From Paracoccaceae bacterium (GTDB lineage: Bacteria > Pseudomonadota > Alphaproteobacteria > Rhodobacterales > Rhodobacteraceae), in assembly GCA_020441345.1 (NCBI GenBank), contig JAGRMK010000004.1:1-32125 (forward strand): 32,125 nt of DNA, written 5' to 3'. This document shows positions 2,083 to 25,201 of this stretch, in pieces. The translations under genes were made by a program, and so were the position numbers. The notes under the pieces are model-generated. The model did not search any database. It was not told the DNA's origin and worked only from the letters and a program-made list of their open reading frames with translations. Each line of letters begins with the position of its first letter. Positions within the stretch are counted from its first letter, which is position 1.

Positions 2083-2940
2083 GTGACAGACGGCGACAGG
2101 CCCCGCAGCGATGGCGCCCCCCCGACCGGTCGGGTTCCGGCGCTGGTCTCGCCCTGGGTGATCGTCTCGCGCCATTTCGAGCTGATCCGTGCGCTGGTCG
2201 AACGCGATATCGAATCGCGCATCCGGGGCACTGTCCTGGGCAAGGTCTGGATCGTGTTCGGGCCGCTGTTCATGCTGGCGGTCTATACGCTGGTGTTCGG
2301 CCTGATCCTGAACTCGCGCTGGCAGGACCGCACCGACGACGCATTCCTGTTCCCGCTGATCTATTTTTCCGGTCTCGTGCTGTTCAACTTCTTTTTTGAA
2401 AGCATCTCGCGCGCGACCACTCTCTTGCGCGACAACCAGTCGTTCATCACCAAGATCGTCTTTCCGCTCGAAGCGTTCTGCTATTCGGTGGTGGGCTCGT
2501 CGCTGGTGCGCTTTGCGATCGGGTTCGTGATTCTGGGCGTATTCTACCTGCCCCTGCAAGGGCTGCCACCCCTCGCCGCGCTGGCCTATCCGCTGCTGTT
2601 CCTGGGCCTTGCGCTGTTTGCTGTCGGGGGCACGCTGGCGCTGGCGGCGCTGGCGGTCTATCTGCGCGACCTCGCGCATCTGATGCAGCCGCTGTCGATG
2701 CTGCTGCTGTTCCTGTCGCCGCTGTTCTACCCGCTGGATCGGGTGCCCGAGGCGTTTCGCCCGCTGGTGATGCTGAACCCGCTGGCCTATCCGCTGGAGG
2801 CCACGCGCAACGCCTTGTTTTTCGGCGAATGGCCGAACCCGCTGGGTGCCGGGCTTTATCTGGTGCTGGGCTGGGTCAGCGCAGCAGCAGGCTATGCCCT
2901 TTTCATGCGCCTCAGGGCCGGGTTCGCGGATGTCGTCTGA
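2083..2940 (+). CDS. wzm: ABC-2 type polysaccharide/glycolipid exporter permease (Wzm-like, ~285 aa)
   Basis: RDIESRIRGTVLGKVW, KIVFP, RDL.HL, LFLSPLFYP, LNPL motifs and about six hydrophobic segments. GTG 2083 chosen as start (after AAGGAC/AGGCAG); start uncertain. Overlaps the next ATPase gene. Confidence 0.9.
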   Translation: MTDGDRPRSDGAPPTGRVPALVSPWVIVSRHFELIRALVERDIESRIRGTVLGKVWIVFGPLFMLAVYTLVFGLILNSRWQDRTDDAFLFPLIYFSGLVLFNFFFESISRATTLLRDNQSFITKIVFPLEAFCYSVVGSSLVRFAIGFVILGVFYLPLQGLPPLAALAYPLLFLGLALFAVGGTLALAALAVYLRDLAHLMQPLSMLLLFLSPLFYPLDRVPEAFRPLVMLNPLAYPLEATRNALFFGEWPNPLGAGLYLVLGWVSAAAGYALFMRLRAGFADVV

Positions 2941-4207
2941 TGTCGCGATCCGGGTTCAGGGGCTTGGCAAGGCCTATCGCCGCCACGCCAGCGAAGGCGC
3001 GCGGCTGCGCGACGCGCTGTTCAAGACCGGCTCGGGCGAAGAAACCTGGGTGCTGCGCGACGTATCCTTCGAGGTGCGCCGGGGCGAGGCGCTGGGCGTC
3101 GTCGGCCGCAACGGCGCGGGCAAATCGACGCTGTTGAAGATCATCTCGAAAACCCTCACCGCCAGCACCGGCACCGCCACGGTGCAGGGTCGGGTGGCAA
3201 CACTGCTGGAACTGGGAGCGGGGTTGCATCAGGACTACACAGGCCGCGAGAACGCACGATTTTCTGCAACCATCATGGGCATGAGCCAGCGCGAGTTCAC
3301 CGCCGTCATCGATGACATCGAAAGCTTCGCCGAGCTGGGTGAATTCTTCGACCGGCGGATTTCGGAATATTCCAGCGGGATGTATGCGCGGCTCGCGTTC
3401 TCGATCAACATCCACTGTCGGCCCGACATTCTGATCGTCGACGAGATCTTGTCCGTCGGCGACATCGCATTCCAGATGAAATGCCTCGAATTCCTGCGCG
3501 GGTTCTGCGCCGCGGGCGGCACGTTGCTGTTCGTCTCGCATGACGATGCGGCGGTGCGGGCGTTGTGCGACCGGGCGATCTGGCTTGAGGGTGGCGCGCT
3601 GGCGGCGGCCGGCGCCACCGACAAGGTCTTGCGGCGCTATCACACGACGACATGGCAACGCCAATCCCGAACAGCCGGGTTCGAGATCCACGACACCGAC
3701 ACGCCCGACACCGCGCCCCCTGCCCCGGATGCGCCGCGCGGCTTCAACCCTGAAACCCTGCCGGACGCACCCGTGCCCGGTGCCGTGACCGTCGTCGATC
3801 TTTTCGATGCCACCGGGCGGCAGGTGGCGCTGCTGCATGGCGGCCAGCGCGTCGAAATCCGCATCGGGTTTCATGCGGAAACGGCAATCGGTGCGCCATC
3901 AGTCTGCTTCCTGGTGCGCAACCGCATGGCGCAACTCCTGTTCGGCGCCCGCACCGAGGTCGCGCCTCCCCTCGCCGCCGGAACCGGTGCCGAAGCGCGG
4001 TTTGCCTTCGTGCTGCCCTACATGCCCTCGGGCGAGTATACGCTGGCGCCGCTGGTGCTCGATGGCGGCGCGGGTGCCGAGCGCGTCGTGCTGCGGTCTG
4101 ACCCTGTCGTGCTGGCAGTGCACACGGTCCATATCTCGCAGGGGCTGGCCAATGTGCGGATGCGCGCGGTGCGCATCGAACGCACCCCGGACGCGCGAGG
4201 GGCCTGA
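2930..4207 (+). CDS. wzt: ABC exporter ATPase with C-terminal Wzt_C-like domain, copy 1 (425 aa)
   Basis: Walker A GRNGAGKST, Wzt-type signature YSSGM, Walker B ILIVDE, H-loop VSHD; beta-rich C-terminal extension ending in LPYMPSGEY. Confidence 0.92.
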   Translation: MSSDVAIRVQGLGKAYRRHASEGARLRDALFKTGSGEETWVLRDVSFEVRRGEALGVVGRNGAGKSTLLKIISKTLTASTGTATVQGRVATLLELGAGLHQDYTGRENARFSATIMGMSQREFTAVIDDIESFAELGEFFDRRISEYSSGMYARLAFSINIHCRPDILIVDEILSVGDIAFQMKCLEFLRGFCAAGGTLLFVSHDDAAVRALCDRAIWLEGGALAAAGATDKVLRRYHTTTWQRQSRTAGFEIHDTDTPDTAPPAPDAPRGFNPETLPDAPVPGAVTVVDLFDATGRQVALLHGGQRVEIRIGFHAETAIGAPSVCFLVRNRMAQLLFGARTEVAPPLAAGTGAEARFAFVLPYMPSGEYTLAPLVLDGGAGAERVVLRSDPVVLAVHTVHISQGLANVRMRAVRIERTPDARGA

Positions 4208-4210
4208 GCC

Positions 4211-5500
4211 ATGACGCAGCCCAGCCTTCGCGCCACTGGCCTTGGCAAACGCTACATGCTGGACGCTACACCGCTACAGCACCTGTCGAACGCGCTGTTC
4301 GGTCGCAGCACCGGTACGCCGTTCTGGGCCTTGCAGGCGATGGACCTGGAAATCGGAATGGGCGATTCGCTGGGTGTCATCGGCCGCAACGGGTCGGGCA
4401 AATCGACGCTTTTGCAACTCTTGATGGGCACGCTGGCACCCAGCACCGGCAGCGTTTCGGTGCAGGGGCGCGTCGCGGGATTGCTGGAACTGGGCGCGGG
4501 GTTCAACCCCGATTTCACCGGGCGCGAGAACGCCGCCCTGAACGCCGCCAACCTTGGGCTGAGCGCGCGCGAGATCGCGCGGCGGATGCCCGCCATCGCA
4601 GCTTTCGCGGACATCGGTGCCTATATCGACCGGCCGGTGCGCGAATATTCCTCGGGCATGTATTCGCGGCTCGCTTTCTCGGTGGCGATCCATGTCGATG
4701 CCGATGTGCTGATCGTCGACGAGATCCTGTCGGTCGGGGACAGCGAGTTCCAGCACCGCTGCCATGCCTGGATGCGGCAGTTCCGGGCACGGGGCGGCAC
4801 GCTGGTTTTCGTGTCGCAGAACGCGCTGGAAATGGCCTCGATCTGCGCGCGCGCGATCTGGCTGGATCGCGGCAAGATCGTCGCTCAAGGCCCCTCGGAC
4901 GAGGTTGCCACCGCCTATCAGGCCGCGCTGCTGGGGCCCTACAAGGCCGCCGAGACCGTCACCACCGCGGTCGGTGGCACGGCCGCGGACACGGCGCGGT
5001 TCGTGCAGCCGATGCGCGTTGCGGTGGGGCCGTTCCAAACCCAGGCCCCGCAGCACGGGGCGGGCGGCGCAAGGGTCGTCGGGGTCGCATGGCAGCACCC
5101 CGGCGGCGATACCGTTCAGACGTTCGACGGCGGCGAAGAGATCGAATTGCGCATCACCGTGCGCGCCGAAACCGCGTTGCACCGGCCGATCCTCGGCTTC
5201 ATCCTGCGCGATGCGCGCGGTCAGAACCTGTTTGGCGACAACTCGTTTCTTGCCACCGCCGAAAACCCGCCCCGGGTGGCGCCGGGCGAACAGATTTCGG
5301 CGGTGTTCCGGTTTCGCTTTCCGTATTTGCCGCAAGGCACTTATCAGCTTGCGCCGTCGATTCTGGAGGGCACGCAAGACGACCACGTGCATCTGCACTG
5401 GATGGAAGAGGCGATGGCGCTGCGCGTGACCGAAAGCCCGGTCGAATTCGGTCTGGTTGGCGTGCCGATGATCCACGCAACGCTGACCCCCTGCGACTGA
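4211..5500 (+). CDS. wzt: ABC exporter ATPase with C-terminal Wzt_C-like domain, copy 2 (429 aa)
   Basis: Walker A GRNGSGKST, YSSGM, VLIVDE. H-loop reads VSQN (His replaced by Gln). C-terminal domain with GFILRDARGQNLFG and FPYLPQGTY. Confidence 0.92.
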   Translation: MTQPSLRATGLGKRYMLDATPLQHLSNALFGRSTGTPFWALQAMDLEIGMGDSLGVIGRNGSGKSTLLQLLMGTLAPSTGSVSVQGRVAGLLELGAGFNPDFTGRENAALNAANLGLSAREIARRMPAIAAFADIGAYIDRPVREYSSGMYSRLAFSVAIHVDADVLIVDEILSVGDSEFQHRCHAWMRQFRARGGTLVFVSQNALEMASICARAIWLDRGKIVAQGPSDEVATAYQAALLGPYKAAETVTTAVGGTAADTARFVQPMRVAVGPFQTQAPQHGAGGARVVGVAWQHPGGDTVQTFDGGEEIELRITVRAETALHRPILGFILRDARGQNLFGDNSFLATAENPPRVAPGEQISAVFRFRFPYLPQGTYQLAPSILEGTQDDHVHLHWMEEAMALRVTESPVEFGLVGVPMIHATLTPCD

Positions 5501-5506
5501 CGCCCC

Positions 5507-6877
5507 TCAGCGCGGGTCGATGACCGGCGGCAGCGGTGCCTTGCCCTGCGCCGCGACAACCAGCGCATCGAACAGCGCCGGCACGACCTGCTCCCAGGTC
5601 GGCCACGAAAAGCCGGCGATCCGCGCGACCAGACGCGCGTGCTCGTCGGGATCCTCAAGCGCCAGCAGAGCTTCGGTCAGGCTATCGGGCGTGGTATCGA
5701 AATAGGCGCCGAAATCGCCCAGAACCTCGGTCGCGATCTCGGACCGATTGGCCAGGACCGGCGTGCCATGCGCGGCGCATTCGACCAGAGGCAGGCCGAA
5801 CCCTTCGACGGTCGAGGCATGGATCAGCGCATGCGCGTGCTCATAGGCATAGGCAAGTTCGGCATCGGTGGTATCGCGCAGCCAGACCACCTTGTCGCGG
5901 TGTGGCGTGGTGGCGATGGCGCGGACGATCTCGTCATACATCCAGCCTTTGCGCCCCAGAATAACAAGCGACCGCGTGCTTTGCCCGCCTGCCCAAAGCG
6001 ACTCAATCGCCGCCAGAACCATGCGGTGCCCCTTTTTCGGTTCGATCGTGCCAACCATCAGGTAGGGGCGGTTGTCGGCAGGAAACAGCGCCGCCAGCCG
6101 GTTTCCGCCCTTGGCCCCGTCCAGCAGCGGGTCCAGCCCGTTGTGACAAACGGTGATCGTGGCCTGTGCGGCTTCGTCGGGGAACAGCCGACGCAGCATC
6201 GACGCGGTATAGCCCGAGATCGTCACCACGCCCGAGAAATTGCGCAGCGCGGCGCGCGCATTCTCGCGGAACTGGTCACGCCAGGGCGCGCGATACAGTT
6301 CAGGGTGCGAAACCGGGATTACGTCATGCACCAGCGTGTAAATTGCCTTCATCCGGCCGCGAAACCGGGCATAGGTCTGGGGCGAGACATCGTGCCAATA
6401 GGCCGGGCAGAACAGGATATCCTCAGGGCCGGGCTCAATGCGAACCGTCTGCATGTAGCGTTGCCAGAACCGGCTGGCGGGCCGTTCCAGCACCTCGAAC
6501 ACCCCCTCCAGTCGTTGCGCCAGCGCCTCGGGGCGGGCCGGTGTGCCGCGCAGCCGGTCGCGCAGCCGCAAGCCGAACCACGGCACCGCGAACAGCGCGT
6601 AAGCGATCCCCAACGCGACATAGTGCAGCGCCAGCAACACCATCGGCCAAGGCCGCGACCGCGACATCGACCGCGGCAACCCGTCGGGATGCGGGAAATT
6701 TGCCGAGCGGCGTTGCAGGACCAGATCACCGTCGGAAATTGCCACCGGCAGAACCTCGACCCCGCGCGCGCGTCCAAAGCCATAACCCAGCACCAGGTAA
6801 TTGCGCACCACGCGCGGAATGCCCGTCAGCGGGCGCCCATGCAGATTGATTGCGGTGGTGTCGATAAGTAGACGCAT
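5507..6877 (-). CDS. GT4 family glycosyltransferase (WbpX/WbdA-like mannosyl/rhamnosyltransferase, 456 aa)
   Basis: TGIPRVV, VHDVIPVSHPE, MVGTIEPKKGH, EGFGLPLVE (EX7E). Start at ATG 6877 (MRLLIDTT). Confidence 0.9.
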   Translation of the reverse strand: MRLLIDTTAINLHGRPLTGIPRVVRNYLVLGYGFGRARGVEVLPVAISDGDLVLQRRSANFPHPDGLPRSMSRSRPWPMVLLALHYVALGIAYALFAVPWFGLRLRDRLRGTPARPEALAQRLEGVFEVLERPASRFWQRYMQTVRIEPGPEDILFCPAYWHDVSPQTYARFRGRMKAIYTLVHDVIPVSHPELYRAPWRDQFRENARAALRNFSGVVTISGYTASMLRRLFPDEAAQATITVCHNGLDPLLDGAKGGNRLAALFPADNRPYLMVGTIEPKKGHRMVLAAIESLWAGGQSTRSLVILGRKGWMYDEIVRAIATTPHRDKVVWLRDTTDAELAYAYEHAHALIHASTVEGFGLPLVECAAHGTPVLANRSEIATEVLGDFGAYFDTTPDSLTEALLALEDPDEHARLVARIAGFSWPTWEQVVPALFDALVVAAQGKAPLPPVIDPR

Positions 6878-7017
6878 GGGCAGGGGCGCACCTGTCTGAA
6901 ACGGGGTCGCCCGGTCTTGGCCCGGTGCCTGGAAGCTGTCAAGCGCAAGCGGGGCGGGTGCCTCGACTTCGCCAGGCGGCGGTGATAGCTGGTGGCGCCG
7001 ACGCAAACGGGGATGCC

Positions 7018-7944
7018 ATGCGGGTCTTTCAGCACATCGACGCGCTCTGGGGGCGTTTTTGGCCGCTTCTCGCGCTGCCGCCGCTGGTGCTGGCCGGGTA
7101 TGTCGTCACCGGGCAGGCCAGGATCGAGCATTACGTCGTGATCCTGGGCGTCATCGTGTTTTCGGTTGCCAGCCGCTTGACCCGCGACCTGCTGCTGGCG
7201 GTCATTCCGGGGATCGGCATTTTCCTGGGCTACGAGGCCGTGCGGGGTCTGCGCCCGCTGTTCGTGACCCCCGACCGTGTCCTTGCCTGCCAGTTTCGAG
7301 ACCTGGACGCCGCGCTGTTCGGCTTTGGCACGGGCATGACCCCGGCCGATTTTTTTGCCCTGCATCACAGCCCGCTCGCGGATCTGATCTTTGCCCTGCC
7401 CTATACGGTCTTCTGGGCCGTCGTGATGGCCTATTGCGGGGTGTTGTTCCTGATCTCGCGCGGGCGGCTCAGGCGCTACCTGTGGGTGCTGGCCCTCACG
7501 CATCTGGTGGCTTTTGCGATCTGGATGGCGCTGCCCGCCGCGCCGCCCTGGTATGTGCGCACGGTTGGCTGCGGGATCGACACCGCCGTGCCCCCGCAGG
7601 CGGCGGCGCTGTCACGCCTCGATGCGCGGTTCGGCATCGGGTATTTCGAGGCCTTCTACAGCCGCGCGCCCACCGTGTTCGGGGCCTTCCCGTCGCTGCA
7701 TGTCTCGTTCCCGGCGGCGGCGATGGTGACTGGCTGGCGCTGGTTCGGCCCCCTGGGGCGGACAGTGACCGCGACCCTGACCCTGTGGATGATCGCGGCC
7801 AGCGTCTATCTGGACCATCACTGGCTGGTCGATGGCCTTGCGACGCTTGTCATCGTCGTCGCGCTGCACGCGCTACTGGTGCGGCTGTGGCCAGCCTATC
7901 GCACGCCCGCCCCCCGAACGGTCTGGCGCGAGGGGCCGCGATGA
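7018..7944 (+). CDS. Aur1-like inositol phosphorylceramide synthase (PAP2 superfamily, 308 aa)
   Basis: Polytopic membrane protein with LPAAPPWY, FGAFPSLH and YLDHHWLVD, matching the conserved domains and His/His/Asp triad of fungal Aur1-type IPC synthases. Confidence 0.85.
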   Translation: MRVFQHIDALWGRFWPLLALPPLVLAGYVVTGQARIEHYVVILGVIVFSVASRLTRDLLLAVIPGIGIFLGYEAVRGLRPLFVTPDRVLACQFRDLDAALFGFGTGMTPADFFALHHSPLADLIFALPYTVFWAVVMAYCGVLFLISRGRLRRYLWVLALTHLVAFAIWMALPAAPPWYVRTVGCGIDTAVPPQAAALSRLDARFGIGYFEAFYSRAPTVFGAFPSLHVSFPAAAMVTGWRWFGPLGRTVTATLTLWMIAASVYLDHHWLVDGLATLVIVVALHALLVRLWPAYRTPAPRTVWREGPR

Positions 7945-9110
7945 CTCTGACCGTGACCCCCGTTGAAACCCGCCGCGCGCTGCGGCGTTTCATCGACCTG
8001 CCGCCGGTGCTGTATCGCTGGTTTCCCGACTATGAACCACCGATGCGCATGGACCGGACGATGCTGCTGGACCCGCGCAAGGGGGCGTTCTTTCGCCACG
8101 GCACGGTGCAATACTGGCTGGCCTGGCGCGACGGCGTGCCGGTCGGACGGATCTCGGCGCAGATGTCGCCGGATCGGCCGGTCGGGGTGCCCGAAGACAC
8201 CGGGATGTTCGGCTGCCTCGATACCATCGACGACCCCGAGGTCGTCGCCGCGCTGATCGCCGCCGCCGAGGCATGGCTGGCCGCGCGCGGATGCCGCCAT
8301 GCCTTCGGGCCTTTCCTGCTGAACATGAGCGGCGAGCCCGGATTGCTGATCGACGGCTTCGACCGGCCGCCGATGACCATGACGCCTTGGCACCCGCCCT
8401 ATCTGCGTGCGCATCTGGAAACGCTGGGCTATGCGAAATGGCGCGACCTGCATTGCTGGACGCTGGACCTGCGCACCGTGGACGGCGCGGCTCTCGGCCG
8501 GTCGTTGCGGCTGGACCGGCGCCGGACCGACATCACCTCGCGCGCGATCACACGGCGCACGCTCCGGGCGGACCTGCCGCTTCTGCGCGATCTTTACAAC
8601 GACGGCTGGCGCGACAACTGGGGGCATGTTCCGCTGACGCTGCGCGACATGCAGGGGCTGCGGCTGCTGGCACCGTATCTGCCGCGCCAGGCCGGGCGCG
8701 TGTTCGAGTTGGGCGGCAAGCCGGTGGCGGTCCTGCTGGCCATTCCCAACATGTTCGAGCTGACGCGCGGGCTTGGGCCAAAGCCCTCGCTGCTGGGCTG
8801 GTTGCGGCTGGGATGGCGCGCGCTGCGCTTTCGACCCCGCAGCGCGCGTATCGTCATGCTGGGCATCGCCGAACAGCTTCGGTTCAGCGCCGCCGGGGCC
8901 GCGATCATGCTGGCGATGATGGACGAATTGCTCGCCGAGCAGCGAACGCTGGATCTCGACGCGATCGACGGCGGCTGGGTTCTGGAGAACAACGTCGCAT
9001 TGACACGGTTCCTGGATCGTTACAACTTTACCACAACACGGATTTTTCGCATCTTCGGGAAACAGCTCGGCGGTGCGCAGGAGAGGCCAGATGACAACAG
9101 ACAGCCCTGA
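7941..9110 (+). CDS. GNAT-fold N-acyltransferase, YghO/bacterial ceramide synthase (bCerS)-like (389 aa)
   Basis: FIDLP..LY, LAWRDGVPVGRISA, AAEAWL..RG, GLLIDGFDRPP, HPPY, WVLENN fit the YghO-like tandem GNAT family. ATGA overlap with the upstream gene. Ceramide synthase role inferred from family and context. Confidence 0.75.
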   Translation: MTLTVTPVETRRALRRFIDLPPVLYRWFPDYEPPMRMDRTMLLDPRKGAFFRHGTVQYWLAWRDGVPVGRISAQMSPDRPVGVPEDTGMFGCLDTIDDPEVVAALIAAAEAWLAARGCRHAFGPFLLNMSGEPGLLIDGFDRPPMTMTPWHPPYLRAHLETLGYAKWRDLHCWTLDLRTVDGAALGRSLRLDRRRTDITSRAITRRTLRADLPLLRDLYNDGWRDNWGHVPLTLRDMQGLRLLAPYLPRQAGRVFELGGKPVAVLLAIPNMFELTRGLGPKPSLLGWLRLGWRALRFRPRSARIVMLGIAEQLRFSAAGAAIMLAMMDELLAEQRTLDLDAIDGGWVLENNVALTRFLDRYNFTTTRIFRIFGKQLGGAQERPDDNRQP

Positions 9111-9447
9111 AATCAACACGGAACCCCCCGTCGAGGACACCCGCCCGCCGGCACCGACAACCTGGCCGACCTTGCCCGAAGAGGGCATGCTGGACACGAT
9201 CCTCAAGATCATTGCCGACGAAGGCAAGGTTGATGCCGCCGATGTCGTGCCCGAAGCGACGCTGGAAACGCTGGGTCTGATCTCTATCGACGTGATCAGC
9301 ATCCTGATGGGCATCGAGGAACAATTCGATGTCTATCTGCCGATGAGCGACGAACTGTCATCGGCCCGCAACCTGGCCGAACTGATCGAGGTCATGGTCG
9401 CCCAGATGCAGCCCGACGAACTCAAGAGCATCGGCCCCGCGAAATAA
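9091..9447 (+). CDS. Specialised acyl carrier protein (118 aa; alternative start 9187)
   Basis: Small acidic protein, TLETLGLISIDVISILMGIEEQFDV matches ACP helix II with Ser at the phosphopantetheine position. GGAGAGG RBS; TAATG coupling to the ketosynthase. Confidence 0.85.
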   Translation: MTTDSPEINTEPPVEDTRPPAPTTWPTLPEEGMLDTILKIIADEGKVDAADVVPEATLETLGLISIDVISILMGIEEQFDVYLPMSDELSSARNLAELIEVMVAQMQPDELKSIGPAK

Positions 9448-13794: not shown

Positions 13795-13801
13795 CCCCTC
13801 T

Positions 13802-18019: not shown

Positions 18020-18829
18020 TCAGCGCGGCAAATCGTCCGGGGCCAGCCCCGTGTGCCTGAGGCTATAGGTCAGGATACGGTCAACCACCGGCGCCGGGGC
18101 AATCGCCCCCAGCGCGACCGCCAGCCGCAACGGCCAGGGAAAGGCGCTGATCCGGGCGCCGCGCGCGACATCGCGGGCGATGCGGTCGGCGGCGCGCTCG
18201 GGGGTCCAGAGCCAGGGGCGCGGCGTTGTCAGGGACTGGCTCATCGGCGTGTCGACAAACCCGGGCAGCACCAGGGTCACGGTCACGCCCTGCGGTCGCA
18301 ACAGCCGCCGGGTGGCATCGGCGTAGATCTTCAGCGCGGCCTTGGACGCCGAGTAGACCGGCGATTGCGGCAGGCCGATCCCGCCCTGGATCGAGCCGAC
18401 GATGACCACGTGCCCCGCCCCGCGCCGTGCCATGCGCGGCTGCAAGGGCGTCACGGTATTCAGAACACCCAACGTGTTCACCGACATCAGGTCACGCGCC
18501 TGTGCGCCGTTTTCGCCCCCCCTCGCCGCCAGGGCCCGATTGCCGCCCAACCCCGCCGCCGCGATCACCATATCAACCGGATGCGCCGCATCGCGCGACT
18601 CGATCCAGGGTTCCAGTGTCGCGTGATCCGTGACATCGATCTGCGCGGCCGCGATCTCGGCCCCCAACGCGCGACAGGCAGCGGCGACCGCGTCGAGCCG
18701 GTCGGCATCGCGGCCGATCAGCGACAACAGGCGACCGGGCGCGGCATAGCGCAACGCCAGGGCGCGGCCGATGCCGCTGCTGGCGCCGGTGATCATCACA
18801 TGCGTCGGATTATCCCGCCGCCCCGCCAT
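18020..18829 (-). CDS. Short-chain dehydrogenase/reductase (269 aa)
   Basis: ITGASSGIG, catalytic Ser (GSIQG), YSASK, PGFVDTPM. Confidence 0.92.
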   Translation of the reverse strand: MAGRRDNPTHVMITGASSGIGRALALRYAAPGRLLSLIGRDADRLDAVAAACRALGAEIAAAQIDVTDHATLEPWIESRDAAHPVDMVIAAAGLGGNRALAARGGENGAQARDLMSVNTLGVLNTVTPLQPRMARRGAGHVVIVGSIQGGIGLPQSPVYSASKAALKIYADATRRLLRPQGVTVTLVLPGFVDTPMSQSLTTPRPWLWTPERAADRIARDVARGARISAFPWPLRLAVALGAIAPAPVVDRILTYSLRHTGLAPDDLPR

Positions 18830-18959
18830 CGCCGCGCGCCTCCTGCCGGTTTCCCGGTTCTTCTAGCATGTCCGCCTGTCGCCGTGCCAGTCCAGCCTGC
18901 GGGGTGGCGGCGGCGGATCACCCCGGCTATCCTGCTACCGCAAACCCCGAGGGAAAACC

Positions 18960-19562
18960 GTGCGCATTCATGAACCCTTCATCACCCCTGTCGCGCGCCG
19001 CCTTGCCGGTGGCCCGCTGACCCCGAATGCGGTCACGCTGGCCTCGGTGCCGCCGGCGTTGCTGGCCGGGGTCTGCGCGGCGCTGGGCTGGTTCGAGGGT
19101 GCGGCGCTCTTGTTCGGGCTCAGCGGGGTGCTGGACCTGCTCGATGGCGCGCTGGCCCGCGCGTTGGCCCGGCGCACGGATTTCGGCGCGTTGCTGGATT
19201 CATCGCTGGACCGGGTGGCGGATGCCTGTGTGCCGATCGGGCTGGTGGTCTATTACGCGCCGCACGGCATCGTCGCGGCGATCCCGGCGCTGTTCCTGCT
19301 GGCCTCGCTGTGGATTTCCTACATCCGCGCGCGGGCGCAATCGCTGGGCCTGGACCTGCCCCGTCTGTGGATGCGCCGCGAGGACCGGTTCGTTGCGCTG
19401 GTTCTGGCCTTGCTGCTGGCGCGCTGGGTCGCGCCGGGGGCCGCCCTGCCCGCGCCGCTGCTGTTGTGGGTTCTGGGGATCGTTGCCGTCCTGGGCTTTG
19501 TCGCCGGGGCGATGGCGCTGGCCCATGCCGCGCGTCAGGCCCGTCAGACCCCGCCCCAATAG
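18960..19562 (+). CDS. CDP-alcohol phosphatidyltransferase, phosphatidylinositol(-phosphate) synthase-like (200 aa)
   Basis: TPNAVT and signature DLLDGALAR...FGALLDSSLDRVAD; SYIRARAQSLG and RREDR resemble PIP-synthase motifs. GTG start after GAGGG. Confidence 0.88.
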   Translation: MRIHEPFITPVARRLAGGPLTPNAVTLASVPPALLAGVCAALGWFEGAALLFGLSGVLDLLDGALARALARRTDFGALLDSSLDRVADACVPIGLVVYYAPHGIVAAIPALFLLASLWISYIRARAQSLGLDLPRLWMRREDRFVALVLALLLARWVAPGAALPAPLLLWVLGIVAVLGFVAGAMALAHAARQARQTPPQ

Positions 19563-20428
19563 GGCGCGAAGGCCGCGATCGCGGCGGCGTCGTTCTGGCC
19601 TGAACGGTTTGGCCCATCGGTCAGCGCCTGAACGGCCGAGCCTGGGGTCTCGACCGGGAAGCGGCGCGTCGGCACCACCACCCGCCGCACGCCGCGCCGT
19701 GCCAGATGGCCCGAGATCCAGACGTCATCCACCCAGCGCACCGCCTCGGGATAGCCTGAGAAATCCTGCACCGCATCGTCGAGCGCGCCAGGCGGCAGCA
19801 GATAGCCCCAGGTTCCGAACAGGATATCGACCGGAACGGGCGCAGAGATCGCGCTGCACAGCACATGCGCCAGTGCCGGGAATGACACGCCCGGCGCCAC
19901 GCTTACCCCGCGCAGACCGACGGCGGCAGCGGGATCGGCCCGGTGCGAGGCAAGAAGCCCGGCCAGAAAATCGCGCGGATAGATCACATCGTCATCGACC
20001 ACCACGATCCGCGCCTTGGGTTCGGCGCGCAGCGTCGGCAGCAGTTTCGACGCCGGCCCCGCATCGGTGCAGCGCAGAACCTCGACCCCCTCGGGCAGCG
20101 CCAGTGTCGCGGGGGCGGGATAGGGCTGACCAGTGCGGCGCGACACCTCGGGCAAACACAGCACGATCCGGTCGGCGGGCTCGGTCTGGTCGATGAGGCT
20201 GCGCAGCGTGGCGCGCAGACGGTGCGCCCGCGCGGGAATCGTGGTCAGCGTCACCACCACCCGTTCGGGCCGGGGTTCGGGCCGGGGCTCGGGCGACGGG
20301 CGACGCGCCGGATCGCGCCAGGCCAGTTGCAGCGCCCGCGCATAGACCCCGGCGATCTGGCCCAGGCCAGGATTGCGATAGCGTGCAAGGGTGCGCGCGA
20401 TGTTCTGCGAGAGCGGAACCTTGCTCAT
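19544..20428 (-). CDS. GT-A fold glycosyltransferase (GT2-like, 294 aa)
   Basis: VVVTLTTIPAR, LRSLIDQT, GPASKLLP, VVVDDDVIYP (DXD), DDVWISG. ATGA overlap with upstream GT32 gene. Confidence 0.8.
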   Translation of the reverse strand: MSKVPLSQNIARTLARYRNPGLGQIAGVYARALQLAWRDPARRPSPEPRPEPRPERVVVTLTTIPARAHRLRATLRSLIDQTEPADRIVLCLPEVSRRTGQPYPAPATLALPEGVEVLRCTDAGPASKLLPTLRAEPKARIVVVDDDVIYPRDFLAGLLASHRADPAAAVGLRGVSVAPGVSFPALAHVLCSAISAPVPVDILFGTWGYLLPPGALDDAVQDFSGYPEAVRWVDDVWISGHLARRGVRRVVVPTRRFPVETPGSAVQALTDGPNRSGQNDAAAIAAFAPYWGGV

Positions 20429-21204
20429 CCGCCCTGCCCCCAGACCGCGGCCGCGGGGCTCCAGACGGGGGCGGCAAACGGATTGACCGGGCGGTTGCGT
20501 TCGATCCAGCGGCGCCTGAGCGAGCCAGGTGCAAGGTCGGCGGCTTTCCAGCTTCCGTGGGTTTCGTGGCGCGCGACCATGTGCCGGTTCACGGGCCAGA
20601 CATTCGGATAATCGAGCGGTGCCATCAGCTGAATTTGCGACCCGACCCAGACATCGGGCCAGACGCGGTCCTGCAACAGACGGGTCAACATGCGCGGGCC
20701 GGTGATGTCCTCGATCCGGTCGCGGGTCACGGCGGGCGCGGCGTCGAACAGGGCAAACGCCCGATCCAGCGCGGCGCGCAGAAACGGGTGGCCCGGCTCT
20801 GCGGCCAGAATGCAGTTGGCGATCTGGATGCCCCGGCGATAGCCCAGTTCGCGCTGGCGCTGGCGGCCAAGATGCGCCTCGATGGACACCGAGCAAGGGC
20901 GCGCGAACAGATCCTGTGGCAGGGGGCGCAGGGGCTGCATGTCGATATCGGCGTAAATCCCGCCATCGCGCAACAGCACCGCCAGCCGGAACACATCGGC
21001 GCGCATCACGCCAAAGGGCATCGCGTCATAGGCTGTCATATGCTCGGGCGATACCTCGGCAATCACCGCCCGGCTGGCGGCATCGTCATAAAGCCGCAGG
21101 GTCAGCGCCGGGTTCAGCCGCGCCCAGGCCGCGCGCAAGGCTTCGGCGCGGAGCGGCAGCCCGGCGGTTTTCCAGGTCTGTGACAGGATGCGAGGCAGGG
21201 ACAT
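20425..21204 (-). CDS. GT32 family (Och1/Sur1-like, DXD) glycosyltransferase (259 aa)
   Basis: LPRILSQTWK, RADVFRLAVL..DGGIYADID, AAEPGHPFL, TGP..LT, H...GSW. Confidence 0.88.
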   Translation of the reverse strand: MSLPRILSQTWKTAGLPLRAEALRAAWARLNPALTLRLYDDAASRAVIAEVSPEHMTAYDAMPFGVMRADVFRLAVLLRDGGIYADIDMQPLRPLPQDLFARPCSVSIEAHLGRQRQRELGYRRGIQIANCILAAEPGHPFLRAALDRAFALFDAAPAVTRDRIEDITGPRMLTRLLQDRVWPDVWVGSQIQLMAPLDYPNVWPVNRHMVARHETHGSWKAADLAPGSLRRRWIERNRPVNPFAAPVWSPAAAVWGQGG

Positions 21205-21336
21205 CGAGGCCGGTTCAATGACGAACCGCGACGATAGGGCGTTGCGCGCAGGGTTACAACCGGCGCGGCACCGGCGCCGATTGCCTTTCCCCGCGCCCCT
21301 GCGGTAGTTTCGCAAAGCCAAGTCAAAGGACGCCCA

Positions 21337-22056
21337 GTGCCACCCAGCCGCATCGCCTATATGACCGTCGACGCCGAGCCCGATTGCCCGCCGTTCCTGT
21401 GGACCTGGCGTGGGATAACCGAGGGGATGCCCCGGCTTCTGGCGCTTTTGGCCGAAGAGGGCGTGCCCGCGACCTTCTTTACCACCGGCGCGACGGCTGA
21501 AACCCACCCCGGCACCGTGACCGAAATCGTTGCAGGCGGACATGAACTGGCGTGTCACGGATATTCGCACACCAATTTCAAGACGATGGATGCCGCGACC
21601 GCGCGCGATGAGATCGCGCGCACGAATGCCATCCTGCGTCGGCACGCGCCGGTCACGTCGTTCCGCGCGCCCTATCTTTCGTTTCCCGAAGCCTATGTGC
21701 CGATCCTGGCGGATCAGGGGTTCACGGTGGACAGTTCACGCGGCGCCTACAAGCGCAACGAGCCCCGCAACGCCACGGCGGGTATGCCGTTCCGGCTGGA
21801 TGCCTCGGTCACGTCCAGCGTGCTGCGCATCCCGCATCTGGTGCGCGATCCCTGGTTTGCGATGCTGAAAAGCCCGGTGACCCTGTTTGTGCACCCTTGG
21901 GAATTCGTCGATCTGACGCAGACCGGGATCCGCTATGACTGCCGGTTCCGCACCGGCCAGCCCGCCCTGGACCGGCTGCGCAGCGCGCTGCGGTGGTTCA
22001 AGACGCGCGGCTTCGAGTTTCGCCTGGTGCACGAGGCCCCGACCCTAGCCGCCTGA
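21337..22056 (+). CDS. Polysaccharide deacetylase (CE4/NodB-like, 239 aa)
   Basis: TVDAE, ATFF, HELACHGYSH, FRAPY, HPWE. No signal peptide evident. GTG start after AAGGAC. Confidence 0.9.
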   Translation: MPPSRIAYMTVDAEPDCPPFLWTWRGITEGMPRLLALLAEEGVPATFFTTGATAETHPGTVTEIVAGGHELACHGYSHTNFKTMDAATARDEIARTNAILRRHAPVTSFRAPYLSFPEAYVPILADQGFTVDSSRGAYKRNEPRNATAGMPFRLDASVTSSVLRIPHLVRDPWFAMLKSPVTLFVHPWEFVDLTQTGIRYDCRFRTGQPALDRLRSALRWFKTRGFEFRLVHEAPTLAA

Positions 22057-23121
22057 ACACAAACGGGCGTAAAGCGCCAGATGCGTTTGCGCCACGACCG
22101 CCCAGTCATAGCGCGCCAGTGCGGGGCGCGGCCCGGCCAACCGCCGCCACAGCGCGGGGTCGCGGGCCAGCCGCAGCGCAGCCTCGGACATGGCCGAATC
22201 GTTGGCGCACAGGAACCCGTCCTCGCCGTCGCGGATGAACTCGGACAGCCCGTTGCCTGCGCGGCCGATCACCGGCAGCCCGGCGGCGCGCGCCTCGAGC
22301 GCGGCGATGCCAAAGGATTCGTGCCGCGATGGCAGGACAAAGGCATGCGCCCCGCGATAGAGAGCGCGCAAGCCGCTGCGGTCCAGCCAGCCCGGCGTCG
22401 TCACCCCGTCACCCAGCCGGGCATGGCGACGCCCCGTGCCCGCGACCACCATCTCAACCGGGTGATCCAGCGCGCGGGCAACCGTGTCACGCACCGACAG
22501 CAAGACCTGCGGGCGTTTCTTGCGTTCCAGCCGCATCGCCGAGACCAGCCGAAAGGCTTTGGCCGGGGCCTGTGGCGCGCTGTCTGCCATCCAGAACCCC
22601 GCATCGAACCCGTTGGGCAACACCAACGGCCGAGAGCCCGGCACAAGCGCCCCAAGATGATCGGCGATCCGCGCGTTGACAGCTGTCAACGCCACTCCCG
22701 ACAGCCGCGCCCCGGCCAACCGCCCGGCGAAGGCCAGGAGCGGCGCCATCGCCGAAAGATCGGAATGCGCGGTGATCACGACCGGCAGGCCCGACTGGCG
22801 CGCGGCAATCAGCCCCGCGACGCAGGCCGGAGCAACGATGCTGGCGTGGATATGCACGACATCCGGCGCAATGGCGTGCAGCGCGGCGCGGGTCCGTCGC
22901 ACCAGCAGCGGCGACACCGCCAGATCAAGGCCGGGCAGACGCGCCCCGTGAAGCCGGTGAACCGGGACCAGATCGTCCTGCGCGTGCGGCTGCGGGGTGA
23001 TCACGTTCACCACGGCCCCGGCCGTCGTCAAGGCCCGCGTGAGCCCTGTCAACTGGCTCTCGATGCCGCCCCGACGCGGGGCAAACCAGTCGCTGATCTG
23101 TGCGACCCTCACGCGCCGCAC
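22045..23121 (-). CDS. GT4 family glycosyltransferase (PigA/PimA-like N-terminus, ~358 aa)
   Basis: SDWFAPRRGGIE, DVVHIH, TAHS, PNGFD, RLERKK, ESFGIAALEA (EX7E). Start GTG 23121 or 23112. Confidence 0.88.
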   Translation of the reverse strand: MRRVRVAQISDWFAPRRGGIESQLTGLTRALTTAGAVVNVITPQPHAQDDLVPVHRLHGARLPGLDLAVSPLLVRRTRAALHAIAPDVVHIHASIVAPACVAGLIAARQSGLPVVITAHSDLSAMAPLLAFAGRLAGARLSGVALTAVNARIADHLGALVPGSRPLVLPNGFDAGFWMADSAPQAPAKAFRLVSAMRLERKKRPQVLLSVRDTVARALDHPVEMVVAGTGRRHARLGDGVTTPGWLDRSGLRALYRGAHAFVLPSRHESFGIAALEARAAGLPVIGRAGNGLSEFIRDGEDGFLCANDSAMSEAALRLARDPALWRRLAGPRPALARYDWAVVAQTHLALYARLCSGG

Positions 23122-23426: not shown

Positions 23427-24041
23427 ATGCATACGAAACGTCTTGTCCGCTGGCAGGAATGGGTCTTTGTCCGGTGCGGGGTTGCGCTGCTTGTCTGTGT
23501 GATGCTGGTTTCGCCGGTTCGCGCCCAGGATTGGTCCTATCAGGCCTGGGGCGCGGTGATGACCGACAACGATTTCGAGGAATTGCTCCGCCTGCGCAAC
23601 CTCGCGTTGCTGGATTCAGGCCTGATCGGGATCGCCGTGCATCGCCGGTTCGGGCCCGATATCGAGATCCCGTTCGGCAGCCTGAGGTTCGAGGTCGAGG
23701 CGCAGCTTGTCCGGCATTTCGGGTTGCAGGATCATTGGGAGGTCAATCTGCCGATCGGGATCCGGTTCACGCCAGATCGCCGCAGGCTGGGTATCGACAG
23801 CATCGCCTTCGGGATCGGGCCATCGTTTGCATCGGAACTCCCGCCCATCGAGTTGCGCCGGGGCAGCGGATCCGGCTCGCGCGAGTTGATCTATTTTCAT
23901 GTCGAAACGGAGCATGTTCTGCGGTCTCACCCGGACACACGGATCTTCTTTCGCGTGCATCACCGGTCGGACGGATACGGGCTGATCGCCAACGCCGTCG
24001 GCACGAATGCCCTGGCGATCGGGTTTCGGCGATCCTTCTGA
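23427..24041 (+). CDS. Small outer-membrane beta-barrel protein, PagL-like (204 aa)
   Basis: Signal peptide ending VRA|QD, alternating amphipathic strands, RVHHRSDGYG...GTN resembling the PagL H-x-S...N catalytic arrangement, terminal Phe (GFRRSF). GGGAG RBS. Confidence 0.6.
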   Translation: MHTKRLVRWQEWVFVRCGVALLVCVMLVSPVRAQDWSYQAWGAVMTDNDFEELLRLRNLALLDSGLIGIAVHRRFGPDIEIPFGSLRFEVEAQLVRHFGLQDHWEVNLPIGIRFTPDRRRLGIDSIAFGIGPSFASELPPIELRRGSGSGSRELIYFHVETEHVLRSHPDTRIFFRVHHRSDGYGLIANAVGTNALAIGFRRSF

Positions 24042-24067
24042 TCTCCGGTCCCTCTGACCGCGTTTCG

Positions 24068-25201
24068 TCAGGGCCGGCCCGCGACGGCAGGCGCCGCGCG
24101 CACCGTTCCAAACAGGCGGCGCAGAAACCGCTGGGCCGGGCGTTCGCACAGCACCAGACCGATCTGGGCCAGCACCAGGATCAGCGCCAGGTAGAGCAGG
24201 AAGAACCACGGTGACAACACCGGCAGCGACACCCCGGCCCGATCCGCCAGAAGGACAACGGCCAGTTGCAGCGGGAAATGCAGCAAGAACACACCATAGC
24301 TGAGATCCCCGAGCCGCTGGAACGCGGCACCCAGCCAGTCGGGCAAGCGGCGAAGACTGGCGGCGGCAAAGCACAGCGTCGGGATGACGACCAGCAGAAC
24401 GGTGTGAATCACCGGAACCACCACCACATCGCCCCAGAACCAGGCCACCACGCCAAAGACGCCCAGCACACCGACGGCCAACCGCCGCAGCGCAGGCCCA
24501 TAGCGCCCGTCGCCATGGCGGAACAGGACAATCGCACCGATCCCCCCGGCAAAGAAATGCGCGGCGCATTCCAGGATTCTGGCGTCGGGAAAGGCCGCGT
24601 AAAACAGACTCGCGCCAACGACCATCCCCAGGTTGAGCCTGATCGACAGACCCCGCCGCCAGACCATCGCGAAAAAGACGGCATAGACCGGGATCAGGAC
24701 CGACAGCGACCAGACCGGCCCGTTATAGGACATCCCCGAGCCGGGCCACCAGGCGGACGCCATCGCCAGGCTCAGCAGAGCGTGCAACAGATCGTTGTCC
24801 TGATAGACGAAATCGACGCCGTTCAGCCAAACGTGGATGCCTTGCAGAACCCCGACGATGGCAAAGGACAAAAGGTAGAGCGGATAGAGCCGGGCCACGC
24901 GATCCAGAAAGAACCGGCGCGGCCGGAGGGAATGCGCGGCGATCACGCGTCCGTAGACCAGGAATAGCGCAAAGCCGCTGATGCTCCAGAAGGTCTGCAC
25001 GCGAAAACGCCCGCCATGTTCGTAGAACAGGCTGGCCCAGCGATAGAACGGTTGTTGCGTGACATCGAAATCCGGCAGCGCGTGGCCGACAAAGCTGAAG
25101 TGCTGATAGTGCCAGATCGCGATCGCAAGACAGCCCAGGAACCGGATCAGATCAATCGCCTCATAGCGTCTCGACGGCATGATCGGGGTTTGCGGATCCA
25201 C
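24068..25201 (-). CDS. Acyltransferase family 3 (OafA-like) membrane O-acyltransferase (~377 aa)
   Basis: IDLIRFLGCLAIAIWH, FWSISGF, RVARLYP, WSLSV, LGDLSYGVFLLHFP, ERP. Start GTG 25201 or ATG 25180. Confidence 0.9.
   Translation of the reverse strand: MDPQTPIMPSRRYEAIDLIRFLGCLAIAIWHYQHFSFVGHALPDFDVTQQPFYRWASLFYEHGGRFRVQTFWSISGFALFLVYGRVIAAHSLRPRRFFLDRVARLYPLYLLSFAIVGVLQGIHVWLNGVDFVYQDNDLLHALLSLAMASAWWPGSGMSYNGPVWSLSVLIPVYAVFFAMVWRRGLSIRLNLGMVVGASLFYAAFPDARILECAAHFFAGGIGAIVLFRHGDGRYGPALRRLAVGVLGVFGVVAWFWGDVVVVPVIHTVLLVVIPTLCFAAASLRRLPDWLGAAFQRLGDLSYGVFLLHFPLQLAVVLLADRAGVSLPVLSPWFFLLYLALILVLAQIGLVLCERPAQRFLRRLFGTVRAAPAVAGRP

What the first reader, a model, noticed from the sequence alone, without database searches (positions are those of the whole stretch)
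2083..25201. Near-complete cluster for making and exporting a eukaryote-like glycosyl-inositol-phosphorylceramide in an alphaproteobacterium
Seen in sequence: 23 tightly packed genes including Ino1, a CDP-alcohol phosphotransferase, an Aur1-motif protein, an alpha-oxoamine synthase, a YghO-type GNAT, an SDR, ACP/KS/MaoC pair, four GTs, a deacetylase, an acyltransferase and three transport modules. Established: fungi use SPT, ceramide synthase, Aur1 and the GT32 Sur1/Csg1 to make mannosyl-IPC. Bacteroides thetaiotaomicron makes inositol-phospho-dihydroceramide with MIPS, a PIP synthase and an Aur1-like enzyme. Caulobacter makes ceramide with Spt, a dedicated ACP and a GNAT ceramide synthase. 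Inference: this locus joins all these parts and adds glycan extension and export, giving an MIPC/GIPC-like surface lipid. I know of no described bacterial pathway with this combination, but cannot confirm novelty without a search.
Basis: partly seen in the sequence, partly recalled or inferred. Interest (0 to 1): 0.93.

Follow-up and report, generated by a model that had tools for sequence, protein, structure and literature searches.

The report
Inositol-ceramide glycolipid synthesis and export island
This 24-gene island in an uncultured alphaproteobacterium likely builds a sugar-capped inositol-phosphate ceramide, a lipid type typical of fungi, plants and protozoa, and likely ships it to the outer membrane through its own second Lpt pump; the same gene set is fixed in the Phreatobacter family, which has cultured species, but no lipid has been measured.

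Summary
The genes are real (24 ORFs, not 23; an independent 33-kb contig spans the window). The inositol-phosphoceramide core is well supported: an Ino1, a PIP synthase, an Aur1-fold enzyme, a YghO/bCerS-type acyltransferase and an alpha-oxoamine synthase of the SgaB/RkpG clade, a clade with one biochemically proven serine palmitoyltransferase. Relatives swap this enzyme for a canonical SPT plus a KdsR-like reductase. Ino1+Aur1+AOS+GNAT+LptG co-occur in 18 of 27 related loci, with GT32 in 12. The Aur1-like gene is in 21 of 22 Phreatobacter-family genomes and in 0 of 400 sampled genomes of the window's own family. The yeast-MIPC reading is weaker. GT32 is accessory and Och1-like. The conserved sugar enzymes are a GT4, a KfiA-like alpha-GlcNAc transferase and a deacetylase, which with a flippase resemble gpgSDF/hexSDF. 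These look cytoplasmic while the Aur1 site looks periplasmic, so an amino-sugar, GPI/GIPL-like head is more likely than MIPC. Every module has a precedent; the combination was not found in ten literature searches. This scan noted the same system earlier on other DNA (e1-5259563, e1-2074130). No lipid data exist.

The parts
2083..2940 (+). Wzm-type ABC-2 permease (accessory)
   Evidence: PF01061; 4 of 27 loci
2930..4207 (+). Wzt-type ATPase with Wzt_C domain, copy 1 (accessory)
   Evidence: PF00005+PF14524; intact ABC motifs
4211..5500 (+). Wzt-type ATPase with Wzt_C domain, copy 2; switch His replaced by Gln (accessory)
   Evidence: 5 of 27 loci
5507..6877 (-). GT4 glycosyltransferase a, travels with wzm/wzt (accessory)
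   Evidence: PF00534; 5 of 27 loci
7018..7944 (+). Aur1/BT_1522-like inositol-phosphoceramide synthase, 8 predicted TM helices, catalytic loops predicted periplasmic
   Evidence: PF14378, NF052609 101/480 bits; the only PDB hits are yeast Aur1 (E 2e-28, TMq 0.68); topology
7941..9110 (+). YghO/bCerS-type GNAT, likely ceramide synthase
   Evidence: 33.7% over 377 aa to E. coli YghO in its sphingolipid locus; 27 of 27 loci
9091..9447 (+). dedicated acyl carrier protein
   Evidence: PF00550; Ser65 motif; 19 of 27 loci
9447..10661 (+). FabF-type ketosynthase
   Evidence: PF00109/PF02801, TIGR03150 377/494; Cys-His-His motifs; 20 of 27 loci
10658..11107 (+). probable MaoC/HadA-like hot-dog partner subunit
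   Evidence: only weak PF13452, E 0.12; weak match to the positional equivalent in relatives
11104..11484 (+). MaoC/HadB-like dehydratase
   Evidence: PF01575, hydratase motif; 19 of 27 loci
11468..12604 (-). LptG paralogue (second set)
   Evidence: PF03739; canonical lptFG are on C311; 22 of 27 loci
12601..13794 (-). LptF paralogue (second set)
   Evidence: PF03739; 20 of 27 loci
13802..14548 (-). LptB paralogue (second copy)
   Evidence: TIGR04406 274/240 bits; another lptB on C87, 48% identical; 21 of 27 loci
14545..15573 (-). LPG_synthase_TM (GpgF/HexF/BT_1521-like) putative flippase
   Evidence: PF03706; 24 of 27 loci
15653..16744 (+). myo-inositol-1-phosphate synthase, actinobacterial type
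   Evidence: PF01658; 467 bits to solved Ino1 1gr0; 25 of 27 loci
16790..18019 (+). alpha-oxoamine synthase of the SgaB/RkpG/WcbT clade, likely serine palmitoyltransferase
   Evidence: tree, clade support 100/99; best PDB hit is an SPT, 8guh; below all NCBIfam SPT cut-offs
18020..18829 (-). SDR of the SgaC/WcbP type, likely 3-ketosphinganine reductase
   Evidence: PF00106; 40% to the SDR of a Pseudomonas PKS-AOS cluster
18960..19562 (+). phosphatidylinositol-phosphate synthase-type CDP-alcohol phosphotransferase
   Evidence: best NCBIfam hits are archaetidylinositol-P and PIP synthases, PgsA only 33 bits; best PDB hits are PIP synthases; 23 of 27 loci
19544..20428 (-). KfiA/PmHS2-like GT-A enzyme, likely alpha-HexNAc transferase
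   Evidence: profile E 9e-6 to 1e-4; model pLDDT 86.5, top folds KfiA and PmHS2; 21 of 27 loci
20425..21204 (-). GT32 DXD glycosyltransferase (variable)
   Evidence: PF04488; best PDB hit Och1, E 4e-14; 14 of 27 loci
21337..22056 (+). CE4 (NodB-fold) deacetylase, no signal peptide
   Evidence: PF01522; metal and catalytic motifs conserved; 20 of 27 loci, always with GT4b
22045..23121 (-). GT4 glycosyltransferase b, BshA/PimA-like
   Evidence: 24 of 27 loci
23427..24041 (+). signal-bearing ORF, possible PagL-like outer-membrane barrel (accessory)
   Evidence: no Pfam hit; nearest named Atlas cluster PagL, 0.93 with only 143 shared features; 1 of 27 loci
24068..25201 (-). OafA-family membrane acyltransferase (not conserved with the cluster)
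   Evidence: PF01757; 0 of 27 loci

Best explanation
The island likely makes an amino-sugar-capped inositol-phosphoceramide and likely exports it to the outer membrane alongside ordinary LPS. Predicted steps: (1) Ino1 makes inositol-phosphate; the PIP synthase joins it to CDP-DAG; a PgpA encoded elsewhere removes the phosphate to give PI. (2) The SgaB-clade AOS condenses serine with an acyl-ACP, the SDR reduces the product and the YghO-type GNAT N-acylates it to ceramide. The ACP/FabF/MaoC set would supply a special, perhaps very long, chain. (3) On the cytoplasmic face GT4b and the KfiA-like enzyme would add HexNAc or hexose to the inositol, the CE4 enzyme would deacetylate one HexNAc, and GT32/GT4a would extend it in some strains. 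(4) The LPG_synthase_TM flippase (or Wzm/Wzt here) would move the lipid across. The Aur1-like enzyme, with its active site predicted to face the periplasm, would move the inositol-phosphate head from DAG to ceramide. (5) A second LptB2FG would extract the product. Shown: gene content, family assignments, motifs, co-occurrence and paralogous Lpt sets. Inferred: every activity, the sugars and the order.
For: Aur1 fold and motifs. BT_1522 is a proven PI-DHC synthase clustered with MIPS, PIP synthase and PgpA, with an LPG-synthase-type gene nearby (PMC9246714 passages). The same four genes cluster here; PgpA is in 16 of 21 related loci. The AOS sits in the clade of PKS-linked SgaB/RkpG/WcbT enzymes, and PfSgaB is a proven SPT with a KDSR-like SgaC (PMC12134224 sections 8-9). 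In 12 of 27 loci the same slot holds a canonical-clade SPT (NF047599 456-470/500 bits) with a KdsR-like SDR. The GNAT matches YghO, the E. coli homologue of the Caulobacter N-acyltransferase. LptF2/G2 in the Caulobacter sphingolipid locus are needed for sphingolipid transport (bioRxiv 2026.04.12.717747 parts 1-2). Here they are a second set beside canonical lptFG and lpxC. GT4b-flippase-deacetylase are contiguous in 11 of 21 loci and in the same order in the 7 stretches, matching gpgSDF/hexSDF, which make amino-sugar lipids. The deacetylase never occurs without GT4b (20 of 20). Positive-inside analysis of 39 sequences puts the catalytic loops and two invariant Cys outside; the GTs and deacetylase lack signal or TM segments.
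Against: No lipid, enzyme or expression data. The window AOS scores best to BioF (340/426) and below every SPT cut-off. PfSgaB itself was not in the tree, only a syntenic Pseudomonas stand-in at 37% identity. The Aur1-like protein is below the PI-DHC synthase equivalog cut-off (101/480). GT4b is not a GpgS orthologue (68/480) and fails the PIGA Pfam test, so its donor sugar is unknown; PimA (mannose) scores about as well as BshA (GlcNAc). GT4b occurs without an intact deacetylase in 4 of 24 loci. No Aur1-type enzyme is known to me to transfer a glycosylated head group. 16 of the 27 loci belong to one family, so the counts are not independent, and the score thresholds were set by hand. LptC/A/D partners are not in the cluster.
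Confidence: 0.58

Rival explanations
1. Two parallel products: a plain inositol-phosphoceramide, plus a separate amino-sugar glycerolipid (GlcN-PI or GlcN-PG as in gpgSDF) made by GT4b, the deacetylase and the flippase.
For: The SDF triad acts on glycerolipids in both characterised cases. The GTs look cytoplasmic while the Aur1 site looks periplasmic, so they need not meet the ceramide product.
Against: The triad stays inside the sphingolipid/inositol cluster through many rearrangements. The KfiA-like GT sits beside the PIP synthase or Aur1 gene in most loci.
Confidence: 0.15
2. The inositol-ceramide is the anchor of a longer polysaccharide (capsule- or O-antigen-like) built in the cytoplasm and exported by Wzm/Wzt.
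For: The closest AOS and SDR relatives lie in rkp/wcb-type capsule clusters. wzm-wzt-wzt-GT4a directly follow the PKS-AOS pair in G402, G404 and G405. Both Wzt copies carry a glycan-binding Wzt_C domain.
Against: Wzm/Wzt are in only 4-5 of 27 loci and in none of the 16 Phreatobacter-family loci. None of the 24 ORFs hits a Kps-type capsule export or anchor family. Only one extra GT travels with them. This may hold for the window's sub-type without being the general function.
Confidence: 0.12
3. One reading: yeast-like order, IPC first, then GT32 adds mannose as Sur1/Csg1 does, giving MIPC-like lipids.
For: GT32 is in the same family as Sur1/Csg1 (recalled) and is kept in 12 of 16 Phreatobacter-family loci and in G401 and G407. 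Its best solved match is a mannosyltransferase, Och1.
Against: GT32 is absent from 13 of 27 loci that keep the other GTs (some are contig-limited). It has no membrane anchor. Orthology to Sur1 could not be tested.
Confidence: 0.1
4. No sphingolipid link: the Aur1-like protein is a PAP2 phosphatase and the AOS is BioF-like, so the island makes only glycosylated PI.
For: The AOS's top NCBIfam score is BioF, no other BioF-like gene was found in the 65%-complete genome, and the window lacks PgpA.
Against: Aur1 is the only significant structural match, far above LpxE and PgpB. PgpA and the Aur1-like gene coexist in 16 of 21 loci. The GNAT is in 27 of 27 loci, and a canonical SPT fills the AOS slot in 12.
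Confidence: 0.05

Closest known systems
Bacteroides thetaiotaomicron inositol-lipid cluster BT_1522-BT_1526 (Heaver et al. 2022, PMC9246714; passages read)
   Same: MIPS, PIP synthase, PgpA-type phosphatase (in relatives), Aur1-like PI-DHC synthase and a neighbouring LPG-synthase-TM gene.
   Different: There the SPT is unlinked and no glycosyltransferases, deacetylase or Lpt set are described in the passages read. Here Ino1 is of the actinobacterial type and PgpA is missing from the window.
Caulobacter crescentus ceramide locus with LptF2/G2/C2 (PMC9393093 passages; PMC9386255 passages; bioRxiv 10.64898/2026.04.12.717747 parts 1-2 of 4)
   Same: bCerS/YghO-type GNAT, dedicated ACP, second LptFG pair inside the locus.
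   Different: Caulobacter uses a canonical Spt, an acyl-ACP synthetase and CerR, makes a phosphoglycerate head and shares the LPS LptB. Here there is an SgaB-clade AOS, an SDR, FabF/MaoC, an inositol head, a dedicated LptB and no LptC2.
Pseudomonas fluorescens MYb115 SgaABC (PMC12134224, sections 8-9 and passages) and the rkp/wcb PKS clusters (PMC3908369 passages)
   Same: AOS clade and KDSR-like SDR; five related loci keep the PKS next to the AOS.
   Different: The window has no PKS; a discrete ACP/FabF/MaoC set stands in. It adds a ceramide synthase, inositol genes and Lpt. 'Inositol' does not occur in that paper's main text.
gpgSDF (P. aeruginosa, PMC12713373 parts 1-3 of 5) and hexSDF (C. 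difficile, PMC10128005 abstract)
   Same: GT4 + deacetylase + MprF-like flippase triad giving an amino-sugar lipid.
   Different: Not orthologous by HMM score; there the acceptors are PG or a glycosyl-diradylglycerol.
Fungal IPC/MIPC and eukaryotic GPI/GIPL cores (PMC12942302 passages; GPI and GIPL chemistry recalled)
   Same: Aur1-fold synthase; a predicted sugar-inositol-phosphate-ceramide product.
   Different: bCerS is unrelated to eukaryotic ceramide synthases (PMC11087976 abstract and opening text). The GTs lack membrane anchors, PIG-A/PIG-L orthology is not met, and export is by Lpt.

Membership tests
BT-type inositol sphingolipid cluster | MIPS | tested here: met
BT-type inositol sphingolipid cluster | PIP-DAG synthase | tested here: met
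   best HMM and PDB hits are PIP/AIP synthases, though below the equivalog cut-offs
BT-type inositol sphingolipid cluster | clustered PgpA-type PIP phosphatase | tested here: not met
   absent from the window, present on C144; clustered in 16 of 21 relatives
BT-type inositol sphingolipid cluster | Aur1-like PI-DHC synthase | tested here: met
   motifs, profile and fold; below the NF052609 cut-off
BT-type inositol sphingolipid cluster | PI-ceramide detected and gene-dependent | not testable with these tools
   needs lipidomics
Caulobacter-type ceramide locus | canonical Spt | tested here: not met
   SgaB/RkpG clade instead; canonical clade in 12 of 27 related loci
Caulobacter-type ceramide locus | bCerS/YghO GNAT | tested here: met
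Caulobacter-type ceramide locus | CerR epimerase and acyl-ACP synthetase | tested here: not met
   no such family among the 24 ORFs; no match to the E. coli locus epimerase
Caulobacter-type ceramide locus | second LptF/LptG pair in the locus | tested here: met
SgaABC PKS-sphingolipid cluster | iterative type I PKS next to the AOS | tested here: not met
   absent from the window; present in G402, G404, G405, G407, G419
SgaABC PKS-sphingolipid cluster | SgaB-clade AOS and SgaC-like SDR | tested here: met
   using a syntenic Pseudomonas cluster (L116) as stand-in for PfSgaB/C
Yeast MIPC pathway | Sur1/Csg1-orthologous GT32 | tested here: inconclusive
   GT32 yes; only Och1 matched in PDB; no Sur1 sequence was available
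Yeast MIPC pathway | membrane-anchored GT on the same side as the Aur1 active site | tested here: not met
   no TM or signal segment in GT32; Aur1 loops predicted outside (hydropathy-based prediction)
gpgSDF/hexSDF amino-sugar lipid module | GT4 + deacetylase + MprF-like flippase together | tested here: met
   all three in the window; contiguous in 11 of 21 relatives
gpgSDF/hexSDF amino-sugar lipid module | GpgS orthology | tested here: not met
   NF053787 68/480 bits
GPI early pathway (PIG-A/PIG-L) | PIGA domain over the cut-off | tested here: not met
   3 of 14 members at best E 0.029; 0 of 22 and 0 of 5 genomes over the cut-off; 4 of 120 listed homologues carry PF08288
GPI early pathway (PIG-A/PIG-L) | PIG-L-family deacetylase | tested here: not met
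   the deacetylase is CE4/PF01522
ABC-exported capsule or O-antigen cluster | Wzm/Wzt with Wzt_C | tested here: met
ABC-exported capsule or O-antigen cluster | Kps-type anchor and periplasmic/outer-membrane export genes | tested here: not met
   none among the 24 ORFs

The most novel reading that the evidence does not exclude
A family of alphaproteobacteria builds a GPI/GIPL-like glucosamine-inositol-phosphoceramide by convergence. It makes HexNAc-PI on the cytoplasmic face, deacetylates and flips it, swaps DAG for ceramide with a periplasm-facing Aur1 that accepts a glycosylated head, and sends it out through a fully dedicated LptB2FG running in parallel with LPS. The SPT step is modular: canonical SPT, PKS-fed SgaB, or ACP/FabF-fed SgaB.
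Probability: 0.3. Interest if true: 0.88.

Novelty: new variant of a known kind. Interest (0 to 1): 0.68.

Why it matters
Bacterial inositol sphingolipids are on record for Bacteroidetes and Myxococcus, and tentatively for Novosphingobium (PMC9246714). My searches found no glycosylated form and no pathway for one in bacteria. A single cluster that covers backbone, head group, sugars and export, and is near-universal in a family with cultured species, makes several open points testable in one strain. These are whether bacteria make GIPC/GIPL-like lipids, how an Aur1-type enzyme is fed across the inner membrane, what a sphingolipid-specific Lpt with its own ATPase recognises, and whether PKS-free SgaB/RkpG-type enzymes are SPTs. 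The last point bears on the unknown lipid made by rkp/wcb clusters.

Tried and rejected
LPS replacement: rejected; lpxC is in 19 of 22 Phreatobacter-family genomes and in G000, and canonical lptFG coexist with the cluster pair. PIG-A orthology of GT4b: not met. Recent foreign island: no GC or GC3 offset and no telling repeats. The same-genus genome G298 (100% complete) has the flanking genes but not the island, and its flanks are on different contigs, so no empty site could be read. The promoter and terminator scan of 1900-21500 was at chance level. GNAT versus PDB: no meaningful hit. Expression: no RNA holder listed. Kiss et al. 1997 on rkpGHI is not held. Phreatobacter lipid descriptions were not found. 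Complex prediction and the 1.84-billion-protein profile search were not run. The 59 non-alphaproteobacterial loci were left out of the 27-locus table and scored separately. Of 223 confirmed stretches only the best 80 were returned.

Full report
Observation. The window is contig C238 of a 3.13-Mb, 64.7%-complete genome. Its housekeeping flanks are 78-79% identical in DNA to G401, titled Rhodobacteraceae. Between 2083 and 25201 lie 24 intact ORFs in about 12 strand-alternating units. One 33-kb contig from an independent run spans 226-32125. Eight runs, from wastewater, activated-sludge and soil metagenomes, hold half or more of the sampled words.

Inositol half. Ino1 scores 467 bits against a solved actinobacterial-type enzyme. 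The CDP-alcohol phosphotransferase matches PIP and archaetidylinositol-phosphate synthases best and PgsA poorly. A 39-sequence profile of 7018-7944 finds only yeast Aur1 in the PDB, with the PAAPPWY, FGAFPSLH and YLDHH motifs aligned. Its model (pLDDT 94) matches Aur1 at E 1e-8, against 0.03 for LpxE. PgpA is missing from the window but is in 16 of 21 related loci and on contig C144. This reproduces the B. thetaiotaomicron set, where BT_1522 was shown by knockout to make PI-dihydroceramide (PMC9246714, passages).

Ceramide half. The GNAT is 33.7% identical over 377 residues to E. coli YghO, which lies in a locus with spt, acp and lptFG and is listed as the homologue of the Caulobacter N-acyltransferase (PMC9386255, passages). 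The AOS is ambiguous by HMM: BioF 340/426, SPT models 207-282, all under cut-off. In a 24-row tree it falls in a 13-row clade (100/99) with PKS-linked enzymes from S. meliloti, Paraburkholderia and a Pseudomonas plasmid, apart from a 9-row canonical SPT clade. The Pseudomonas cluster has the same PKS-AOS-SDR locus-tag spacing as MYb115 sgaABC, whose SgaB is a proven SPT (PMC12134224, sections 8-9). PfSgaB itself was not available, so this is a stand-in. The window SDR is 40% identical to that cluster's SDR. In Phreatobacter-family loci the same slot holds a canonical-clade SPT (456-470 of 500 bits) and a KdsR-like SDR. Five loci keep a full PKS beside the AOS. In two of these (G402, G419) the ACP/FabF/MaoC set coexists with the PKS, and in the window it is co-transcribed with the GNAT, so it may feed the N-acyl chain (inference).

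Distribution. The Aur1-like gene was not found in 400 sampled genomes of the window's family or in 400 sampled across the class, but is in 21 of 22 genomes of the family of G413, titled Phreatobacter. A GTDB scan confirmed 223 stretches and returned the best 80. I scored 27 alphaproteobacterial-type genomes, 16 from that one family and four with under 19 kb of sequence, using hand-set thresholds. Counts: GNAT 27, Ino1 25, flippase 24, GT4b 24, PIP synthase 23, AOS of either type 22, LptG 22, LptB 21, KfiA-like GT 21, deacetylase 20, GT32 14, Wzt 5, Wzm 4, the OMP-like ORF 1, OafA 0. Ino1+Aur1+AOS+GNAT+LptG co-occur in 18 (6 of 11 outside the family); with GT32 in 12 (1 of 11 outside). G420 also carries the pips-GT-GT32-deacetylase-GT4b block on another contig. 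G826 and G827 hold the whole set in about 20 kb on a contig as long as the genome. The other 59 loci, mostly titled Myxococcota, pair Aur1 with a CDP-alcohol transferase, MMPL, PgpA or MIPS but show no GNAT, AOS or Lpt match within 10 kb.

Sugars. GT32 is variable and matches only Och1 clearly. The conserved enzymes are different. The 'GT2' matches KfiA and the GlcNAc-transferase domain of heparosan synthase by profile and by fold. GT4b is BshA/PimA-like; it is neither a GpgS orthologue nor PIG-A by Pfam. GT4b, flippase and deacetylase are contiguous in 11 of 21 loci, like gpgSDF and hexSDF, which make amino-sugar lipids (PMC12713373 parts 1-3, PMC10128005 abstract). The deacetylase occurs with GT4b in 20 of 20 loci and with the KfiA-like GT in 17 of 20. 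Genome-wide checks agree: G403 has the KfiA-like GT but no GT4b or cluster-type deacetylase, and G408 has GT4b and deacetylase but no KfiA-like GT (incomplete genomes). Against a fixed amino-sugar head, G402, G404, G405 and G407 keep GT4b without an intact deacetylase.

Topology and export. Across 39 sequences the short loops and termini of the Aur1-like protein are Lys/Arg-rich, while the loops with the catalytic motifs and two invariant Cys are not, which predicts a periplasmic active site. The GTs and deacetylase show no signal or TM segment. The simplest order is therefore sugars on PI inside, flip, head-group transfer to ceramide outside, then Lpt extraction. IPC flipping back inward would give the same product by another order. 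This step is inference. The cluster's LptBFG is a second set: G000 and most family genomes also have canonical lptFG and lpxC. Caulobacter's LptF2/G2 are required for sphingolipid transport but share the LPS LptB (bioRxiv 2026.04.12.717747, parts 1-2); here LptB is duplicated too. Wzm/Wzt/GT4a mark a sub-type and may flip a longer glycan.

Novelty. Ten searches of the open library returned no paper on this cluster or on a glycosylated inositol-phosphoceramide pathway in bacteria. I saw most hits only as listings, supplements were not opened, and most subscription papers, including bacterial lipidomics, are not held. Each module has a precedent, so I file it as a new variant of bacterial inositol-sphingolipid synthesis. 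Earlier notes of this scan describe what appears to be the same system on other DNA (e1-5259563, e1-2074130); I saw them after forming my reading and do not count them as support. Added here: the near-fixation in a family with cultured members, the interchangeable SPT types, the SDF-like amino-sugar module and the topology argument.

Verdict. Observation confirmed; interpretation partly supported. My probabilities: inositol-phosphoceramide core about 0.85, glycosylated and Lpt-exported product about 0.6, MIPC specifically about 0.1. Interest 0.68.

Noticed in passing
L004:8134-8742, L098:6433-7044 and 10 more loci: A DUF4833 gene is in 12 of 21 related clusters but not in the window; it is a candidate for an unassigned lipid-handling step.
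   Followed up: partly
L011-L081 (59 mostly Myxococcota loci): The nearest Aur1-like relatives outside Alphaproteobacteria sit with a CDP-alcohol transferase (40 loci), an MMPL transporter (37), PgpA (21) and MIPS (12): a candidate pathway for the myxobacterial ceramide-phosphoinositol.
   Followed up: partly
L112:15828-19161; L135; L136: A stand-alone GNAT-SDR-AOS triad of the window's AOS subclade, with no adjacent PKS annotated, lies beside capsule genes on an Acidisoma plasmid and at second sites in G408 and G409. This suggests ceramide-anchored capsules.
   Followed up: partly
L113:4280-14043: The S. meliloti PKS-AOS-SDR capsule locus (rkpA/G/H-like, names recalled) groups with SgaB-type enzymes, implying a sphingoid product.
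   Followed up: partly
L007, L089, L090 (G405): The record is titled Flavobacteriaceae but is collinear, flanks included, with the Rhodobiaceae genome G404; probably mis-binned or mislabelled.
   Followed up: no
window 4211-5500: The second Wzt has Gln in place of the switch His, as in G401 but not in G402-G405; it may be a degenerate site in a Wzt heterodimer.
   Followed up: partly
L043:801-1769 and 6 more loci: An HpnA-like NAD-dependent epimerase sits between ino1 and GT4b in Phreatobacter-type clusters; it could be a ceramide reductase or a sugar epimerase.
   Followed up: no
G837:C1:3936044-3970308; G836:C3:384663-390499: The G837 cluster is split by about 34 kb; in G836 several cluster genes align in pieces, from frameshifts or sequencing errors.
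   Followed up: no
window 26468-26530: A short intergenic element between qor and sir2 has many copies in the same-genus genome G298 and in G401; REP-like.
   Followed up: no
window 29169-32125: A long Ala/Pro-rich low-complexity ORF with a weak C-terminal PilP-like match follows metR/metF; unrelated to the island.
   Followed up: no
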